The notes beneath the pieces were generated by a model that ran no database searches, was not told where the DNA came from, and worked only from the letters and a program-made list of their open reading frames with translations. Position numbers and translations under genes: made by a program. From NCBI GenBank assembly GCA_963641945.1, contig CAVIDW010000001.1, positions 31,136 to 95,135 on the forward strand: 64,000 bases of DNA, in the 5' to 3' direction. Position 1 is the first letter of the stretch. Every line of letters starts with the position of its first letter. Below, one piece after another: positions 4,905-25,360 of this stretch. The DNA comes from a bacterium. Lineage in GTDB: Bacteria; Bacillota_I; Bacilli_A; RF39; UBA660.

Positions 4905-6083
4905 TTAAGCTTTTTTATCTATTTCTATTATTATTTGATATTTGTCATCTAAATCCATTTCAGATGTTTCAATTAATCTACTTACTTCATCTAAACTAGA
5001 TACAAATTTTCTAACCTTTCCTATTACTTTTGGTAAATTAACTTCTCCGTCTTCAGAAATTAAACTATCTGTTTCTTCAATTATTGTTTCTTTTTTCTTT
5101 TCGAATACTGGATTTTCTTCTTCTAACTCTTTTACTTCAAACTGATTTATTGATTGTGATGGAGTAAGTTCAATTGCTTCAATCGAATCTTCTAATTTAG
5201 TTTCTTCTTTTAGTTCCTCATGCATTTCGAATACTGGTTTTTCTTGTTTAATATTTTCTATTATATTTAAAGTATTAGTACTTTGAAATGGATTGATTAT
5301 TTCTCTATCATCTTTGTATTCTACAAGTTCCGATTTTTCATTATCTGGTTCTAATTTTTTTTGTTCATTTATATCTATTACTTGAGGCACATCTATTTTA
5401 ATTTCTTCTGTAGGCTTATTTTTCTGAGGATTTAAGAATAATTCAATATCTTTTGGAATATCAAAATGATTACTATCTTTATTTAAAATCATACTCACTT
5501 CATCTTCAGTTTGTTTAACTGTTAATTTTTCATTTATGATTCTATTTAATAAATTTATTTGTAAATCTTTATTACTTAAAGATAATAAAGTTCTAGCATG
5601 TCTTTCTGATATTTTGTTATATAATAATGCATCTTGAACTTCTTTAGGTAAGTTTAAAAGTCTTAATCTATTTGCAACAGAAGATTGGCTCACTCCAAGT
5701 TTTTGAGCTATATCATCTTGTGTGAATCCTCTATTCATTAGTTTCTTATATGATTGAGCTTCTTCAATGACAGTTAAATTTTTTCTTTGAAGATTTTCTA
5801 ATAAAGCTATTTCAGCACTTGTATCATCATCTGTGTTATTCATAATTGCTGGAATTCTTTTAAGACCAGCTAAACATGATGCTTTATATCTTCTTTCACC
5901 AGCAATAATTTCATATTTTTCTCCTATCTTTCTTACGACAATAGGTTGTATAACACCATATTTAATTATAGAATTAGCTAAATCATTTAATTCTTTTTCA
6001 TTAAATGCTAATCTTGGTTGAAATCTATTTGGTAGTATATCTTCTACTGGTATATATAAAACTTTATCTTTATTATCTTCCAT
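4905..6083 (-). CDS. parB: ParB/Spo0J/Noc-family partition protein with long acidic/Lys-rich C-terminal extension; no adjacent parA
   Basis: 392 aa. ParB N-domain motifs (RFQPR, IQPIVVR, GERRYKA) and an HTH (TQDDIAQKLGVSQSSVANRLRLL). About 150 aa of low-complexity sequence precede the C-terminus. Confidence 0.8.
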   Translation of the reverse strand: MEDNKDKVLYIPVEDILPNRFQPRLAFNEKELNDLANSIIKYGVIQPIVVRKIGEKYEIIAGERRYKASCLAGLKRIPAIMNNTDDDTSAEIALLENLQRKNLTVIEEAQSYKKLMNRGFTQDDIAQKLGVSQSSVANRLRLLNLPKEVQDALLYNKISERHARTLLSLSNKDLQINLLNRIINEKLTVKQTEDEVSMILNKDSNHFDIPKDIELFLNPQKNKPTEEIKIDVPQVIDINEQKKLEPDNEKSELVEYKDDREIINPFQSTNTLNIIENIKQEKPVFEMHEELKEETKLEDSIEAIELTPSQSINQFEVKELEEENPVFEKKKETIIEETDSLISEDGEVNLPKVIGKVRKFVSSLDEVSRLIETSEMDLDDKYQIIIEIDKKA

Positions 6084-21546: not shown

Positions 21547-24096
21547 ATGGATACTAATGAAAATGTTGATAATTCACAAGTTGTTAACAATGAAAATGAT
21601 TTTTCTGGTACATTTCATGAGAGAGATAGTCACAATGTAAATAATATAGTAGATGAAGTTAAGAGTTCTTTCTTAGATTATTCAATGAGTGTTATAACTT
21701 CTCGTGCTATTCCAGATTTAAGAGATGGTTTGAAACCGGTTCACAGAAGAATTCTTTGGTCTATGTATGAGGAAGGAAATACTCCTGATAAGCCTCACAG
21801 AAAATCAGCAACAACTGTTGGTAATGTTATGGGACATTATCATCCACATGGTGATAGTTCTATTTATGAAGCAATGGTTCGTTTAGCTCAAGATTTTAGC
21901 CAAAGATATATGTTGATTGATGGACATGGAAACTTTGGTAATATAGAAGGTGATGGTGCTGCTGCTTACCGTTATACTGAAGCAAGATTAGCTAAGATTT
22001 CTCTTGAATTATTAAGAGATATCAATAAAGATACTGTTGATATGGATGATAACTTTGATGTTACTAGAAAGGAACCTAAAGTTTTACCTTCTAGATTTCC
22101 AAATATTTTGGTTAATGGTTCAATGGGTATTGCAGTTGGTATGGCTACAAATATTCCTCCACATAATTTAAGAGAAGTTATTGATGGATGTATTGCTTAT
22201 ATTGATAATCCTGATATAGATGTTCTTGGATTAATGAATTATATTAAAGGTCCTGATTTTCCAACAGGTGGTATAATTCTTGGAAATTCCGGTATTAAGA
22301 AGGCATATGAAACAGGTAGGGGTAGTATTACAATAAGAAGTAAGGCAACTATTGAAGAACATAATAATCATAATTGTATTGTTATTTCTGAAGTTCCATA
22401 TGGTGTTAATACTATGGAATTAAAGAATAAGGTTGCAGAATTGGTTCATACAAAGGTAATTGATGGAATATCTGATTATCATACTGATTTAAAAGATGGT
22501 GTTAAGATTACAATTACTTTAAAGAAAGATGCTAATCCACAAGTTGTATTAAATAATCTATATAAACATACATCTTTCCAAATAAATTATGGAATTATAT
22601 TCCTTATGTTAGATGGATTAACTCCTAGAACACTTGGTTTAAAGGATATTATTTCAAAATATATTGATCATCAAAAAGTTGTTATTATTAGAAGAACAAG
22701 ATTTGACTTGGCTAAGGATGAAAAAAGAGTACATATTTTAAATGGATATAAGATAGCACAAGATAATATTGATGAAGTAATTAGAATTATTAAACAAGCT
22801 AAAAATGATGATGAAGCTAAAGCTAATTTAATGGAAAGATTTGGATTAGATTTAATTCAGTCTGAAGCTATTTTAGAGCTAAAATTAAGAAGATTAACTG
22901 GTCTAGAAAGAAGTAAGATAGAAGAAGAGTTAGCTAGCTTATTAAAGGAAATAGAGGAGTTAAAAGCTATATTAGCTTCTGAACAAAAAGTATTAGAAAT
23001 TATTAAAAATGAAATGCTAGAAATTAGAAATAAATATGGTGATGATAGAAGAACTGAGATTGATATGACTGCTGTTGAATATATCGAAGATGAGTCATTA
23101 ATACCTCAAGAAGAAATAATCGTTACTTTAACAAATAAGAATTATATTAAGAGAATTCCTAAGGATACTTATAAGGTTCAACATAGAGGTGGAGTTGGTA
23201 TTAAGGGTATGACTACTACTGATAATGACTTTGTTGAACAGTTAATTTCCTTAAATACTCATGATGACATATTATTCTTTACAAATAAAGGTAAGGTTTA
23301 TAGATTAAAAGGATATAAGATTCCAGAGTATTCTAGAACTGCTAAAGGTCTTCCAATTGTTAATTTATTGCAATTAGAGAAGGATGAAAAGATAAAAACT
23401 GTTATTAAAATATCTAGTAAAGAAGACTTTACAAACAAATGTTTGTTATTTACAACTAAAAATGGATTAATTAAGAGAACTGCTATTGCAGAATTTGAAA
23501 ATATTAGACAAACAGGTAAAATTGCTATTACTTTAAAAGATGATGATGAACTTATTTCAGTAAAAATGACTTCAGGTGATGATCAAGTTCTTATTTGTTC
23601 TTCTAAAGGAAGAATGGCTAGATTTAATGAGAATGAAATCAGAATAATGGGTAGAACAGCTTCTGGTGTTAGGGGAATAAATTTAACTGATGATATATGC
23701 GTAGGAGCTGAAATTTCTGAACTAGGAAAGTCATTATTAGTTGTTACTGAAAACGGATATGGTAAAAAGACTGCTATTGAAGAATATAGAGAAACTAAGC
23801 GTGGTAGTAAGGGAGTTAAAACTCTTAATATTACTGAAAAGAATGGTAATGTAGTAGGCTTCAAATCTACTGATGATAATAAAGATTTAATGATAATTAC
23901 AAATGATGGTGTTATTATAAGAATGGATGTTAAATCTATTTCAACAATGGGTAGAGTTACTAAAGGCGTTAGACTTATAAACTTAAAAGATAATAATAAG
24001 GTTGCTTCAATATCTATTCTTGAAAAGGAATTAGAAGAGGAAAATGATTCTTCAACAATTGAAAGTGTAGAACCTGTTAATGAAGAGAATGAGTAA
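21547..24096 (+). CDS. gyrA: DNA gyrase subunit A
   Basis: 849 aa. Active-site region (AAAYRYTEARL), C-terminal beta-pinwheel repeats, acidic tail. Confidence 0.97.
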   Translation: MDTNENVDNSQVVNNENDFSGTFHERDSHNVNNIVDEVKSSFLDYSMSVITSRAIPDLRDGLKPVHRRILWSMYEEGNTPDKPHRKSATTVGNVMGHYHPHGDSSIYEAMVRLAQDFSQRYMLIDGHGNFGNIEGDGAAAYRYTEARLAKISLELLRDINKDTVDMDDNFDVTRKEPKVLPSRFPNILVNGSMGIAVGMATNIPPHNLREVIDGCIAYIDNPDIDVLGLMNYIKGPDFPTGGIILGNSGIKKAYETGRGSITIRSKATIEEHNNHNCIVISEVPYGVNTMELKNKVAELVHTKVIDGISDYHTDLKDGVKITITLKKDANPQVVLNNLYKHTSFQINYGIIFLMLDGLTPRTLGLKDIISKYIDHQKVVIIRRTRFDLAKDEKRVHILNGYKIAQDNIDEVIRIIKQAKNDDEAKANLMERFGLDLIQSEAILELKLRRLTGLERSKIEEELASLLKEIEELKAILASEQKVLEIIKNEMLEIRNKYGDDRRTEIDMTAVEYIEDESLIPQEEIIVTLTNKNYIKRIPKDTYKVQHRGGVGIKGMTTTDNDFVEQLISLNTHDDILFFTNKGKVYRLKGYKIPEYSRTAKGLPIVNLLQLEKDEKIKTVIKISSKEDFTNKCLLFTTKNGLIKRTAIAEFENIRQTGKIAITLKDDDELISVKMTSGDDQVLICSSKGRMARFNENEIRIMGRTASGVRGINLTDDICVGAEISELGKSLLVVTENGYGKKTAIEEYRETKRGSKGVKTLNITEKNGNVVGFKSTDDNKDLMIITNDGVIIRMDVKSISTMGRVTKGVRLINLKDNNKVASISILEKELEEENDSSTIESVEPVNEENE

Positions 24097-24118
24097 TCAT
24101 TCTTTTTTATTTATTTAA

Positions 24119-25190
24119 TGTTCCACATGAAACAATTATTTCCCGGGAAATAAAAAATGTTTAAAAAATATTTCCCGGGAAATATTTTTGTATGTTCCAC
24201 GTGAAACATATTGTTATTAAGTTATTTTTATTGGCTGTTCATAATTTAAATCGAGATGATATATTATATGTTATTTCATTTCTCGATACGTTTTATCAAT
24301 TGTTAAATTTTAATTAAATTTTATTGTTTATAATATAATGTTTCACGTGAAATATATTGTGGATAAGTATTATTAAAGATACCAAATATATATTAGTATT
24401 AATTTGATTGTTATATTCTTTTATAATTCAATTTTTCATTTTCACTTTCTAAGAAGTGATTTTTCCTTGTAATTACGGCACTTTGTATACTTTTTATATA
24501 CTATTTTAATTTTAAAATATGTATTTATTTGTATGTTCCACGTGAAACATGTGTGGATAAATAGCTAAAACGTGTTAAATTTTAAGAAAATATTTAATAT
24601 TTAGTTTAAATTTATTATTTTGAGTTTGTATTTTTAATTAAATTTTTTATAGGTTTCACGTGGAACATATTGTTAATATGATTATATGTTAATAAATATT
24701 TTTTTTTAATCATTATTTATATTAAAATTTTTTTCTTTTAAATATATGTTTATCCCAGTAATTTCGGTGTTTTTTTATATTTTTGTAAAAGAATTTTAAT
24801 AAATATATTTAATGTTCCACGTGAAACATGATGTTAATAACTTTTTAAAAAATTTATAATTTATTTTTATTTTATTAAAAAAGATGTTAAATATTATATT
24901 CAATAACAATTTTTATGTTTCACGTGGAACATTGTGTTGAAAACTTAATATTTTTGTTAAATATACTTAATTATTGCCTATTATTTTATTAATTTTATTA
25001 AATATTTTTTACAATTTATAATATGTTCCACGTGAAACATATTGTTAATAAGTTGCGTTTATTTGTTATTTTTAATTTAAATTGAGATTATATATTATTT
25101 TATTTCTTGATGCATTTTAGAAATTATTGATATATTTTATAAAATAAAAAGTGTTAATTGTTAATGTTTCACGTGGAACATTGTTGATAA
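24119..25190. repeat. intergenic array of nine 18-bp near-palindromes ATGTTYCACGTGRAACAT, each followed by a DnaA-box-like 9-mer
   Basis: Copies at 24119, 24193, 24339, 24533, 24651, 24812, 24915, 25023 and 25164, in alternating orientation. The downstream 9-mers are TGTGGATAA (perfect DnaA-box complement, twice), TGTTGATAA and TGTTAATAA (three times). The copy at 24119 has a degenerate CACATG core and is followed by the CCCGGG palindrome instead of a box. No ORF of 60 aa or more across the region. Confidence 0.8.
24140..24186. repeat. two copies of 14-bp perfect palindrome ATTTCCCGGGAAAT
   Basis: 24140-24153 and 24173-24186, 33 bp apart. The GC-rich CCCGGG core is unusual in this AT-rich genome. 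Confidence 0.7.
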
Positions 25191-25267
25191 GTTTGTAAAT
25201 TTAAGAAAAATTGTGTAAAAAGTTAGATTTAATTGTTGATTTTGTGTTTATTTTGTTGTAAAATTTG

Positions 25268-25346
25268 TTTGTGCAACAATATGTGCATGAACCAGGTCAG
25301 AATTGGAAGATAGCAGCCTTAAATGTAATTATTGTGTGCACTTTTT
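25268..25346 (+). ncRNA. ffs: small SRP RNA (4.5S/scRNA-type) candidate
   Basis: The domain IV signature CCAGGUCAG...GGAAG.UAGCAGCC sits in a GC-richer hairpin (GTGCAAC...GTGTGCAC) ending in T6. An extended -10 (TGTTGTAAAAT) lies upstream. In B. subtilis scr lies next to tadA/dnaX. Confidence 0.6.
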
Positions 25347-25360
25347 TAATGGTGTAAAAA

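What the first reader, a model, noticed from the sequence alone, without database searches (positions are those of the whole stretch)
24119..25190. Nine-copy array of an 18-bp CACGTG-core near-palindrome, each copy fused to a DnaA-box-like 9-mer, downstream of gyrA
The 1.26-kb gap between gyrA and the SRP RNA / tadA has no ORF of 60 aa or more. It carries ATGTTYCACGTGRAACAT nine times at irregular 74-194 bp spacing, in alternating orientation. Whatever the orientation, each palindrome is followed 1-3 nt later, on the same side, by a TTATCCACA-family box. Two of these are perfect (TGTGGATAA at 24359 and 24552). The others are TGTTGATAA, TGTTAATAA (three times), TGTTATTAA and TGTGTTGAA. Such a composite palindrome-plus-DnaA-box module within a few kb of oriC does not match any regulator site I could recall: not LexA, Rex, Fur, NrdR, CcpA, CodY, HrcA or WalR. 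It could be a datA-like or DnaA-box-cluster titration locus, a binding array for an unknown origin-associated factor, or a new intergenic repeat family.
Basis: seen in the sequence. Interest (0 to 1): 0.85.

Follow-up and report, generated by a model that had tools for sequence, protein, structure and literature searches.

The report
parS centromere array with DnaA boxes
The "unknown" palindrome is the standard bacterial centromere site parS, repeated nine times next to the replication origin, but eight copies sit directly against a binding site for the replication initiator DnaA (with two Noc-protein sites alongside), a pairing that recurs in related gut bacteria and may link DNA replication to chromosome segregation.

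Summary
In detail: there are nine copies of ATGTTYCACGTGRAACAT at 24118-25181, none elsewhere in the 64 kb, and none expected by chance. The gap between gyrA and the SRP RNA is therefore an origin-proximal centromere array, 7.4 kb from a canonical oriC unwinding element between dnaA and dnaN. Arrays of 2-11 parS sites lie at the same position in most of 80 related uncultured gut Bacilli.

The DnaA-box part of the finding holds up. Eight of the nine parS copies are followed 0-2 nt later by a box of the type found at this organism's own oriC. The only two perfect TTATCCACA boxes in the window are among them. Across the clade, 54 of 64 boxes inside the arrays lie within 8 nt of a parS, against about 11 expected. 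The arrangement differs between lineages.

New here: two perfect Noc-binding sites (NBS) lie in the array. The only ParB-family gene in the window has Noc-type specificity residues. No canonical ParB and no ParA were found.

Most likely this is a composite ParB/Noc-like/DnaA platform. It is a new variant of known kinds, and its function is inferred, not shown.

The parts
24118..24135 (.). parS copy 1 (ATGTTCCACATGAAACAA; 1 mismatch in the 16-mer core)
24137..24152 (.). NBS 1: TATTTCCCGGGAAATA, a perfect Noc-binding-site consensus
   Evidence: consensus from PMC7383237
24169..24184 (.). NBS 2: TATTTCCCGGGAAATA, perfect. Together with NBS 1 and parS 1-2 it forms a 92-nt inverted repeat just after the gyrA stop codon
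24192..24220 (+). Module 2: parS (24192-24209), 2 nt, then DnaA-box-like TGTTATTAA (24212-24220)
24338..24366 (+). Module 3: parS (24338-24355), 2 nt, then a perfect DnaA box TGTGGATAA (24358-24366)
24533..24560 (+). Module 4: parS (24533-24550), 1 nt, then a perfect DnaA box TGTGGATAA (24552-24560)
24651..24679 (+). Module 5: parS (24651-24668), 2 nt, then TGTTAATAT (24671-24679). A further TGTTAATAA lies at 24687-24695
24812..24840 (+). Module 6: parS (24812-24829), 2 nt, then TGTTAATAA (24832-24840)
24915..24943 (+). Module 7: parS (24915-24932), 2 nt, then TGTTGAAAA (24935-24943)
25023..25051 (+). Module 8: parS (25023-25040), 2 nt, then TGTTAATAA (25043-25051). The extended 12-mer AACTTATTAACA is of the same type as at oriC
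25164..25190 (+). Module 9: parS (25164-25181), 0 nt, then TGTTGATAA (25182-25190). The extended 12-mer AACTTATCAACA is identical to two boxes upstream of dnaA
4905..6083 (-). The only ParB-family gene in the window (392 aa). It is Noc-like, with specificity residues Q-R-N-R, and is the predicted binder of the two NBS sites. It lacks the Noc N-terminal membrane helix
14900..15150 (.). DnaA-box cluster upstream of dnaA (TTATCAACA x2, TGTTAATAA x2 and others). It serves as the reference for this organism's box variants
16592..16731 (+). dnaA-dnaN spacer: tandem boxes TTATCAACA and AAATCAACA followed by a TAT AAT AAT run. This is the probable oriC unwinding element, 7.4 kb from the array
   Evidence: definition of the basal unwinding system (BUS) from PMC8287927

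Best explanation
The gyrA-ffs intergenic region is the origin-proximal centromere of this chromosome: a dense array of nine parS sites where ParB-CTP clamps load. It is built as a composite platform. Eight parS sites abut, at 0-2 nt and always on the same side, a single DnaA box of the type used at this organism's own oriC. Two Noc-binding sites at the gyrA end are the predicted loading sites for the Noc-derived ParB paralogue encoded 18 kb away.

What is shown by sequence and comparison: the identity of the three motifs, their non-random juxtaposition, and their conservation across a clade.

What is inferred: DnaA occupies the boxes, so that DnaA and ParB sit shoulder to shoulder on each roughly 29-bp module. 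The most likely consequence is direct coupling in cis between the initiator and the partition complex. Either the array sequesters DnaA close to oriC in a way gated by ParB occupancy (like a DnaA-box cluster), or DnaA binding conditions centromere function (as in Caulobacter), or both. Such direct coupling could stand in for the Soj/ParA route, because no ParA was found in the 64-kb origin region.
For: parS identity:
- Six perfect and three near-perfect matches to TGTTNCACGTGNAACA, against the published consensus.
- The array is confined to one locus, 7.4 kb from tandem DnaA boxes plus a trio-like run in the dnaA-dnaN spacer.
- Arrays of 2-11 parS sites lie directly downstream of gyrA in most of 80 related species. 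The 18-bp unit is nearly invariant over 329 sites.

DnaA boxes:
- The only two perfect TTATCCACA boxes in 64 kb are adjacent to parS.
- The TGTKRATAA family is 35-fold enriched upstream of dnaA and 14-fold enriched in the array, all on one strand there.
- The four exact copies of the extended 12-mer AACTTATYAACA split two upstream of dnaA and two in the array.
- Clade-wide, 54 of 64 boxes (at most 1 mismatch) inside array regions lie within 8 nt of a parS edge, against 10.7 expected. For perfect boxes the count is 8 of 9.
- Offsets peak sharply at 0 and 2 nt in one orientation and at 3 nt in the other.
- At least five phylogenetically separated groups carry different arrangements.
- Box variants in an array tend to match those in the same genome's oriC spacer: 0.71 versus 1.13 mismatches.
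- Between the window and L002, modules are 91% identical and spacers 68%.

NBS and Noc-like protein:
- Two perfect NBS sites lie in the array.
- Relatives hold 133 NBS sites, 101 of them inside the arrays.
- Sites split cleanly into 285 pure parS and 112 pure NBS, with no hybrids.
- The window's ParB-family protein and 120 homologues carry Q(K/R)NR. Published mutational scanning ties that signature to NBS specificity.

Precedents: DnaA binds boxes in the Caulobacter parS region and enables segregation (Mera 2014, as described in PMC6399470). In B. subtilis, DnaA-box clusters act together with Spo0J/Soj on initiation (PMC3245932).
Against: - No binding data exist for any of the three proteins.
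- A canonical ParB (R173/G201) was not found in the window or in any fetched locus, and the rest of the genome could not be read. The presumed parS binder is therefore unidentified.
- Five of the eight flanking boxes differ from TTATCCACA at two or three positions. In 24% GC DNA, that level of match alone would be weak evidence.
- Copies within an array, and arrays in sister species, share ancestry, so the P values overstate independence.
- About three quarters of the related species have parS arrays without adjacent boxes, so the pairing is not essential to centromere function.
- The DnaA of this organism differs from E. coli at four positions that I recall as base-contacting (R399K, P423E, T435S, H439Y). 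Its true box preference is therefore uncertain.
Confidence: 0.6

Rival explanations
1. This is a plain parS centromere array. The flanking 9-mers are not DnaA sites. They either hitch-hiked when parS-containing units were duplicated, or they reflect a flank preference of ParB itself. A DnaA box resembles a parS half-site: TTATCCACA versus TGTTCCACG.
For: Units do duplicate and recombine: a 77-nt duplication at 86% identity and strain-level gain and loss of units. Most boxes in the window are two-mismatch variants. About 75% of related arrays have no adjacent boxes. TTTTCCACA-type flanks are 7 of 9 identical to a parS half-site (my own comparison of the sequences).
Against: Perfect TTATCCACA recurs next to parS in several lineages. 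Both box orientations occur, each with its own preferred offset, which a half-site model does not predict. The flanks share the extended 12-mer with the boxes upstream of dnaA. Spacers have diverged while the boxes are kept.
Confidence: 0.15
2. A single protein serves both palindromes. The Noc-like protein at 4905-6083 would be the only ParB-family protein of the clade and would load at both parS and NBS, so there is no separate ParB.
For: It is the only ParB-family gene in the 64-kb origin region and in all fetched loci. The canonical noc-soj-spo0J neighbourhood is replaced by rsmG, the Noc-like gene and an SPFH-domain gene, also in relatives. The protein lacks the membrane helix that defines Noc function. 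Position 184 is N rather than the K typical of Noc.
Against: In the published scan, parS-specific variants had an invariable R at position 173, whereas this family has Q173 and R201. Sites fall into two clean classes with no hybrid half-sites or mixed sites, which points to two distinct homodimers. A GyrA subclade has parS arrays but no NBS. From memory, parB is not next to noc in all Firmicutes (for example S. aureus), so its absence from this region is weak evidence.
Confidence: 0.15
3. The array is a second or auxiliary replication origin, or part of a split oriC.
For: It is a very AT-rich, ORF-free 1.1-kb region with many DnaA boxes, including the only perfect ones. GC skew cannot separate 15 kb from 24 kb, because all genes in between are co-oriented.
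Against: Canonical oriC elements exist elsewhere: a box cluster upstream of dnaA, and tandem boxes plus a trio-like run in the dnaA-dnaN spacer, in the window and in 13 relatives. The array boxes are single and are followed by parS, not by DnaA-trios. An origin at 24.5 kb would put dnaA through gyrA head-on to replication. Most related arrays lack boxes altogether.
Confidence: 0.05
4. The array is a REP-like or mobile intergenic repeat family, or encodes a structured RNA.
For: It consists of palindromic repeats in an intergenic region. The first 92 nt fold into a strong hairpin as RNA (-31.5 kcal/mol, z = -3.7).
Against: There are no copies elsewhere in the 64 kb. The position is fixed in about 75 species. 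No Rfam family matches the array at the gathering threshold or with a meaningful score. Promoter-like sites are no more frequent than chance.
Confidence: 0.02

Closest known systems
Chromosomal parS / ParB (Spo0J) centromere sites of Firmicutes and other bacteria
   Same: The same 16-bp palindrome (consensus TGTTTCAC-GTGAAACA), an origin-proximal location and multiple copies. Published parS counts per genome run from 1 to about 23 (PMC7333895).
   Different: The density is unusual: nine sites in 1.07 kb of a single intergenic gap. The position downstream of gyrA is fixed across the clade. The sites sit directly against DnaA boxes and are interleaved with NBS. No parA or canonical parB was found nearby.
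Caulobacter crescentus centromere, where DnaA binds DnaA boxes in the parS region and enables segregation (Mera et al. 2014, as described in PMC6399470)
   Same: DnaA boxes lie inside the parS locus, separate from oriC. The initiator and the centromere protein share one locus.
   Different: Here the pairing is a repeated module with 0-3 nt spacing, present up to eight times per array. It occurs in low-GC Bacilli with no ParA detected, whereas the Caulobacter effect works through ParA-driven movement. Nothing functional has been tested here.
Bacillus subtilis DnaA-box clusters (DBCs) outside oriC, and E. coli datA
   Same: A cluster of DnaA boxes near but outside oriC. B. subtilis DBCs restrain initiation and interact genetically with Spo0J/Soj (PMC3245932).
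   Different: Each box here is single and welded to a parS site, rather than the boxes clustering among themselves. A titration role is untested. No relation to datA-specific features such as IHF was examined.
Noc-NBS nucleoid occlusion system of Bacilli
   Same: A perfect 16-bp NBS (TATTTCCC-GGGAAATA). The paralogue is closest to Noc structures and has the specificity-switching residues Q173 and R201 plus a basic residue at 179. It sits in the noc position after rsmG.
   Different: The protein lacks the N-terminal membrane-targeting amphipathic helix and has N at position 184. It carries a disordered linker of about 120 aa. In the DNA available, its sites are concentrated in the parS array rather than scattered.
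Vibrio cholerae chromosome II rctA/parS2 locus, bound by both ParB2 and the initiator RctB (PMC3688505, PMC6399470)
   Same: One locus is bound by a centromere protein and a replication initiator, which gives crosstalk between replication and segregation.
   Different: The initiator is unrelated (RctB, not DnaA), the control there works through ParB spreading or competition at iteron-like sites, and the locus is a single site rather than a repeated module.
Plasmid centromere arrays such as F sopC (from memory)
   Same: Many closely spaced copies of a ParB-type palindrome in about 1 kb or less.
   Different: sopC is a regular tandem repeat with a plasmid-specific site. Here the spacing is irregular (74-195 nt) and the site is the chromosomal parS consensus. 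Some relatives do have regular tandem forms (39-bp and 117-bp periods).

Membership tests
chromosomal parS (ParB nucleation site) | 16-bp palindrome matching TGTTNCACGTGNAACA | tested here: met
   Six perfect matches and three with 1 mismatch, all in the array. Consensus from PMC7383237.
chromosomal parS (ParB nucleation site) | Origin-proximal location | tested here: met
   The array lies 7.4 kb from the box-plus-trio element in the dnaA-dnaN spacer and 9 kb from the dnaA promoter boxes.
chromosomal parS (ParB nucleation site) | Site and position conserved in related genomes | tested here: met
   Arrays of 2-11 parS lie directly downstream of gyrA in most of 80 species. The 18-bp unit is nearly invariant over 329 sites.
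chromosomal parS (ParB nucleation site) | Cognate ParB with parS-type specificity residues (R173, G201) encoded in the genome | tested here: inconclusive
   None was found in the 64-kb window or in the fetched clade loci. The only family member is Q-R-N-R.
chromosomal parS (ParB nucleation site) | ParB binding and CTP-dependent spreading from the site | not testable with these tools
   Needs ChIP-seq or in vitro reconstitution.
Noc / NBS | 16-bp palindrome TATTTCCC-GGGAAATA | tested here: met
   Two perfect copies at 24137-24152 and 24169-24184. Relatives hold 133 sites.
Noc / NBS | Noc-type specificity residues Q173, K179, K184, R201 | tested here: met
   The residues are Q, R, N, R in the window and Q(K/R)NR in 120 homologues. 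The paper reports that one basic residue at 179 or 184 suffices. Position 184 is atypical.
Noc / NBS | N-terminal membrane-targeting amphipathic helix | tested here: not met
   The ORF starts at MEDNKDKVLYIPV and aligns from residue 24-25 of Geobacillus and Bacillus Noc. No upstream in-frame extension is possible, and homologues start in the same way.
Noc / NBS | Sites scattered around the chromosome | tested here: inconclusive
   In the 64 kb the only two sites are in the array. In relatives, 101 of 133 lie within the arrays. The whole genome was not available.
DnaA-box cluster outside oriC (B. subtilis DBC / datA-like) | Several DnaA boxes in a short region that is not oriC | tested here: met
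   Two perfect boxes and one with 1 mismatch. Six matches to TGTKRATAA in 1.16 kb, a 14-fold enrichment. The extended 12-mer is shared with the dnaA promoter boxes.
DnaA-box cluster outside oriC (B. subtilis DBC / datA-like) | DnaA binding and a negative effect on initiation | not testable with these tools
   Needs DnaA ChIP or EMSA, plus the ori/ter ratio after deleting the array.
oriC basal unwinding system (BUS) | DnaA box(es), usually tandem, followed within 16 bp by at least three DnaA-trios | tested here: not met
   The array boxes are single and abut parS. The BUS-like arrangement is found instead at 16664-16700 and in the dnaA-dnaN spacers of relatives. Definition from PMC8287927.
Caulobacter-type DnaA-dependent centromere | DnaA box(es) within the parS locus | tested here: met
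Caulobacter-type DnaA-dependent centromere | ParA-driven movement of the ParB-parS complex triggered by DnaA | tested here: inconclusive
   No Soj/ParA homologue was found in the window or in 80 clade loci, and the positive control worked on three loci from other taxa. The whole genome was not available, and function is untestable here.
REP-like dispersed intergenic repeats | Many copies dispersed between genes across the genome | tested here: not met
   Zero copies outside the array in 64 kb, and almost none outside the arrays in 80 loci of about 14 kb each.

The most novel reading that the evidence does not exclude
The clade has evolved a three-protein cis module: NBS, then a DnaA box, then parS. 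It is contiguous over about 48 bp in some relatives, and reduced to parS plus box in the window. On it, a ParB clamp loader, a Noc-derived clamp that has lost its membrane anchor, and DnaA assemble side by side. In the commonest arrangement the CACA end of the box faces parS, which is the end that faces the DnaA-trios at oriC. ParB loading and DnaA oligomerisation would then directly help or exclude each other. That would give a ParA-independent way of coupling replication initiation to origin segregation.
Probability: 0.25. Interest if true: 0.85.

Novelty: new variant of a known kind. Interest (0 to 1): 0.6.

Why it matters
How bacteria coordinate replication initiation with origin segregation is known only through a few indirect routes: Soj-DnaA in B. 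subtilis, DnaA at the Caulobacter centromere, and ParB2/RctB in Vibrio. A repeated module that places a DnaA box 0-3 nt from a ParB site, arising in different arrangements in several lineages, would be a compact natural substrate. With three purified proteins and a 30-50 bp duplex one could test whether DnaA and ParB clamps cooperate, compete or block each other. The co-occurrence of parS and NBS in one array, together with a Noc-type protein that lacks its membrane helix, also bears on how the Noc branch of the ParB family diversified. On the practical side, it shows that the 'unknown' palindrome is ordinary parS, and that annotation pipelines and readers should recognise it.

Tried and rejected
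- Looking for the parS-binding ParB. tblastn with the Noc-like protein and a Thermus Spo0J fragment found only the one gene in the window, and none in 80 clade loci or in the low-GC metagenome loci. Walking outwards with the look-up of encoding contigs failed: two window ORFs were not on record and one contig was only 3 kb. The neighbourhood of an orthologue showed the same synteny without parA or parB.
- Structured RNA. Rfam at the gathering threshold and at E <= 1 gave only the SRP RNA plus meaningless sub-threshold miRNA and snoRNA hairpin matches over the parS-NBS inverted repeat.
- Promoters and terminators. Promoter-like sites were at the chance level and no terminator was called.
- Fixed-register logo of the parS flanks over the whole clade. 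It showed no conserved flank, because the boxes sit on different sides, in different orientations and at different offsets in different lineages. Orientation-aware counting was needed.
- Metagenome scan for TTATCCACA, 0-3 nt, then the 18-mer. It returned 35 stretches, mostly from the same clade. About 11 high- or mid-GC hits from other taxa (about 12 if a GC-0.32 locus is counted) have one adjacent box each and could be chance, so no claim is made beyond the clade.
- AlphaFold model of the Noc-like protein. Mean pLDDT was 59. Only the DNA-binding domain is confident, the linker is disordered and there is a small C-terminal domain. I did not take it to a fold search.
- NCBI taxonomy gave no useful name for the clade.
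- 'Alternating orientation' of the palindromes was rejected as a meaningful feature.
Full report
**1. The observation**

The window carries nine matches to ATGTTYCACGTGRAACAT (at most 2 mismatches) at 24118-25181. There are none elsewhere in the 64 kb and none in 100 shuffles. Start-to-start spacing is 74-195 nt. The gap between gyrA (21547-24096) and the SRP RNA (25263-25357) has no ORF longer than 41 aa.

Eight of the nine copies are followed, always on the 3' side, by a 9-mer of the TGTGGATAA family. The spacing is 2 nt in six copies, 1 nt in one and 0 nt in one. Copy 1 is followed by a different palindrome. The two perfect DnaA boxes (24358-24366, 24552-24560) are the only perfect TTATCCACA in the window.

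The 'alternating orientation' is a one-base asymmetry with no conservation.

**2. What the palindrome is**

The inner 16-mer, TGTT(C/T)CACGTG(A/G)AACA, is the consensus parS site of chromosomal ParB/Spo0J (TGTTTCAC-GTGAAACA; PMC7383237). Six copies are perfect to TGTTNCACGTGNAACA and three have one mismatch.

The window is the origin region of a 24% GC uncultured gut member of the Bacilli. One side of the origin carries prfA, rpoE, a PBP1A gene, an SPFH-domain gene, a ParB-family gene, rsmG, mnmG, mnmE, jag, yidC, rnpA and rpmH. The other side carries dnaA, dnaN, a comK-like gene, recF, gyrB, gyrA, the array, ffs, tadA, dnaX, ybaB and recR.

**3. Where oriC is**

Upstream of dnaA lies a dense cluster of box variants: TTATCAACA twice, TGTTAATAA twice, and others. 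The dnaA-dnaN spacer holds tandem boxes TTATCAACA and AAATCAACA, followed by TAT AAT AAT..., then a ribosome-binding site and an ATG at 16732. Thirteen relatives show the same layout, often with a clean TAATAATAATAA run. This is the arrangement of the basal unwinding system described for B. subtilis and other bacteria (PMC8287927).

The array is therefore not oriC. It lies 7.4 kb from the unwinding element.

**4. Conservation**

A GyrA-based scan of one genome per species returned 80 loci at 70-99% identity. Most of them have 2-11 parS sites directly downstream of gyrA. Over 329 sites the 18-bp unit A-TGTTYCACGTGRAACA-T is nearly invariant.

Arrays turn over quickly. Strains with 99% identical GyrA differ by whole units. 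Some relatives have regular tandem forms, with 39-bp and 117-bp periods. Between the window and L002 (GyrA 97%), the parS, box and NBS modules are 91% identical while the spacers are 68% identical.

**5. Are the flanking 9-mers DnaA boxes?**

*Within the window.* The TGTKRATAA family is 35-fold enriched upstream of dnaA and 14-fold enriched in the array, where every copy is on the + strand. The extended 12-mer AACTTATYAACA has four exact copies: two upstream of dnaA and two next to parS. Eleven of its 17 near-matches lie in the dnaA-upstream cluster, the dnaA-dnaN spacer, the dnaA gene itself or the array.

*Across the clade.*
- 54 of 64 boxes (at most 1 mismatch) inside array regions lie within 8 nt of a parS edge, against 10.7 expected if they were placed uniformly. 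For perfect boxes the count is 8 of 9.
- Viewed outward from parS, boxes with the CACA end proximal peak at 0 nt (54) and 2 nt (17). Boxes with the TTAT end proximal peak at 3 nt (13). Other offsets are almost empty.
- The arrangements differ by lineage. The window, L001, L002 and L087 have parS then TGTGGATAA. L049-L060, L086, L097, L105, L109 and L110 have TTATCCACA then parS. The L017 group and L028 have parS, 2-8 nt, then TTATCCACA. L077 has TGTGGATAA then parS.
- On a GyrA tree these lineages form at least five separated groups among box-free lineages.
- Box variants in an array are closer to those in the same genome's oriC spacer than to other genomes' (0.71 versus 1.13 mismatches, closer in 11 of 14 loci).

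These counts are not phylogenetically independent. The diversity of arrangements is what argues for selection rather than inheritance of a single duplicated unit.

The DnaA of this organism has GGRDHSTIIYA in domain IV. From memory of the E. coli complex, this changes several base-contacting residues. That fits the relaxed TTATYAACA boxes at its own origin, but I did not verify it.

**6. A third element: Noc-binding sites**

Two perfect copies of TATTTCCCGGGAAATA lie at 24137-24152 and 24169-24184, and they are the only ones in the window. This is the consensus Noc-binding site.

In relatives there are 133 such sites in 54 of 81 loci, and 101 of them lie inside the parS arrays. Some lineages carry five copies of a contiguous module: NBS, 3 nt, TTATCCACA, then parS.

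Sites divide cleanly into 285 pure parS and 112 pure NBS, with no hybrids. This points to two distinct specificities.

**7. The proteins**

The only ParB-family gene in the window (4905-6083, minus strand, 392 aa) sits in the noc position after rsmG. It scores higher against Noc structures (203 bits) than against Spo0J (158 bits).

At the four specificity positions defined by Jalal et al. (ParB R-T-A-G, Noc Q-K-K-R) it has Q-R-N-R. All 120 closest homologues have Q(K/R)NR. In that study, parS-specific variants always kept R173. The protein is therefore predicted to bind NBS, not parS.

It lacks the N-terminal amphipathic helix that Noc needs for membrane binding and nucleoid occlusion. It has a long disordered linker before a small C-terminal domain.

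No second ParB-family gene and no Soj/ParA were found in the window or in the clade loci. The Soj control query did find parA in loci from other taxa. I could not read the rest of the genome. The parS-binding ParB is therefore presumed but not identified.

**8. Mechanism**

*Shown.* The identity, clustering, juxtaposition and conservation of the three motifs, and a canonical oriC located elsewhere.

*Inferred.* ParB-CTP clamps load at the nine parS sites and form the origin-proximal partition complex, presumably to recruit SMC as in other Firmicutes (PMC7333895). The Noc-like clamp loads at the NBS pair. DnaA occupies the abutting boxes.

With a gap of 0-3 nt, DnaA domain IV and the ParB DNA-binding domain must touch or exclude each other. 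The most likely function is therefore direct coupling of DnaA availability or activity to centromere occupancy. This resembles B. subtilis DnaA-box clusters, which act with Spo0J/Soj on initiation, or the Caulobacter centromere, where DnaA binding enables segregation. I put about 0.6 on this composite-platform reading as a whole. For the parts, I put about 0.95 on parS identity and about 0.7 on the flanks being true DnaA sites.

**9. Rivals**

- The flanks are hitch-hikers or reflect a ParB flank preference (0.15).
- A single Noc-like protein serves both palindromes (0.15).
- The array is an auxiliary origin (0.05).
- The array is a REP-like repeat or encodes an RNA (0.02).

The evidence for and against each is given in the rival entries.

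**10. Novelty**

Origin-proximal parS clusters, NBS sites and DnaA boxes at a centromere are each known. In three literature searches I found no description of repeated parS-DnaA-box modules, or of mixed parS/NBS arrays. That is absence from an incomplete library, not proof.

I rate this as a new variant of a known kind, with interest 0.6. It is well above 'ordinary', because the composite architecture is strongly non-random and experimentally tractable.

Noticed in passing
window 24118-24209: parS1, NBS1, an 18-nt gap, NBS2 and parS2 form a 92-nt inverted repeat starting 22 nt after the gyrA stop codon. As RNA it folds at -31.5 kcal/mol (z = -3.7). It might double as the gyrA terminator or form a cruciform. 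The arrangement is conserved in L001 and L002.
   Followed up: partly
window 4905-6083 (-): A Noc-type ParB paralogue with specificity residues Q-R-N-R. It lacks the N-terminal membrane-targeting helix and has a disordered acidic linker of about 120 aa before a small C-terminal domain. It is conserved over its full length at about 60% identity in 120 homologues. The synteny is rsmG, this gene, then an SPFH-domain gene, with no parA or parB.
   Followed up: partly
window 16592-16740: The mechanical dnaN ORF (start 16659) is probably too long. A ribosome-binding site AAGGAGG and an ATG at 16732 fit the alignments better. The true dnaA-dnaN spacer then holds tandem DnaA boxes plus a TAT AAT AAT run, which looks like an oriC unwinding element.
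   Followed up: partly
window 17930-18424 (+): A ComK-family gene (Pfam PF06338, E = 4.5e-45) sits between dnaN and recF, which is an unusual place for a competence regulator.
   Followed up: no
window 12365-14875 (-): Three ORFs (140, 210 and 382 aa) between rpmH and dnaA have no Pfam or NCBIfam match. A relative (L081) has a single 490-aa gene without a family match at this position.
   Followed up: no
window 16190-16591 (DnaA domain IV): The DNA-recognition motif reads GGRDHSTIIYA, against GGRDHTTVLHA in E. coli. Aligned positions give R399K, P423E, T435S and H439Y. This may explain the relaxed TTATYAACA boxes at this organism's own oriC. The list of base-contacting residues is from memory.
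   Followed up: partly
window 24191-24267 and 25022-25098: A 77-nt direct repeat at 86% identity spans parS, its box and the following spacer (modules 2 and 8), which indicates a recent duplication of a unit. Strains with 99% identical GyrA (L001, L092, L104) differ from the window by whole units.
   Followed up: partly
L086:1-1800, L097:2500-3700, L110:4300-5900: Four to five copies per locus of a contiguous 48-bp triple module: TATTTCCCGGGAAATA, 3 nt, TTATCCACA, then ATGTTTCACGTGAAACAT. The surrounding spacers are diverged.
   Followed up: partly
L037:7857-8145; L051:8481-9064: Regular tandem forms of the array: eight parS sites at a 39-bp period in L037, and 117-bp units each with one parS and one NBS in L051.
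   Followed up: no
L016, L019, L021, L024, L034-L036, L045, L056, L058, L061, L065, L066, L069, L072, L074, L078: A GyrA subclade in which most loci have parS arrays but none has an NBS in the locus (three of them show no parS either). I could not check whether these species still encode the Noc-like protein.
   Followed up: no
L091:2150-2270, L106, L113:9020-9970: In three loci from other taxa (GC 0.32-0.54), parS sites lie next to a classical parA-parB operon, and one parS per locus is followed by TGTGGATAA at 0-3 nt. This may be chance, or a hint that the pairing is wider than this clade.
   Followed up: no
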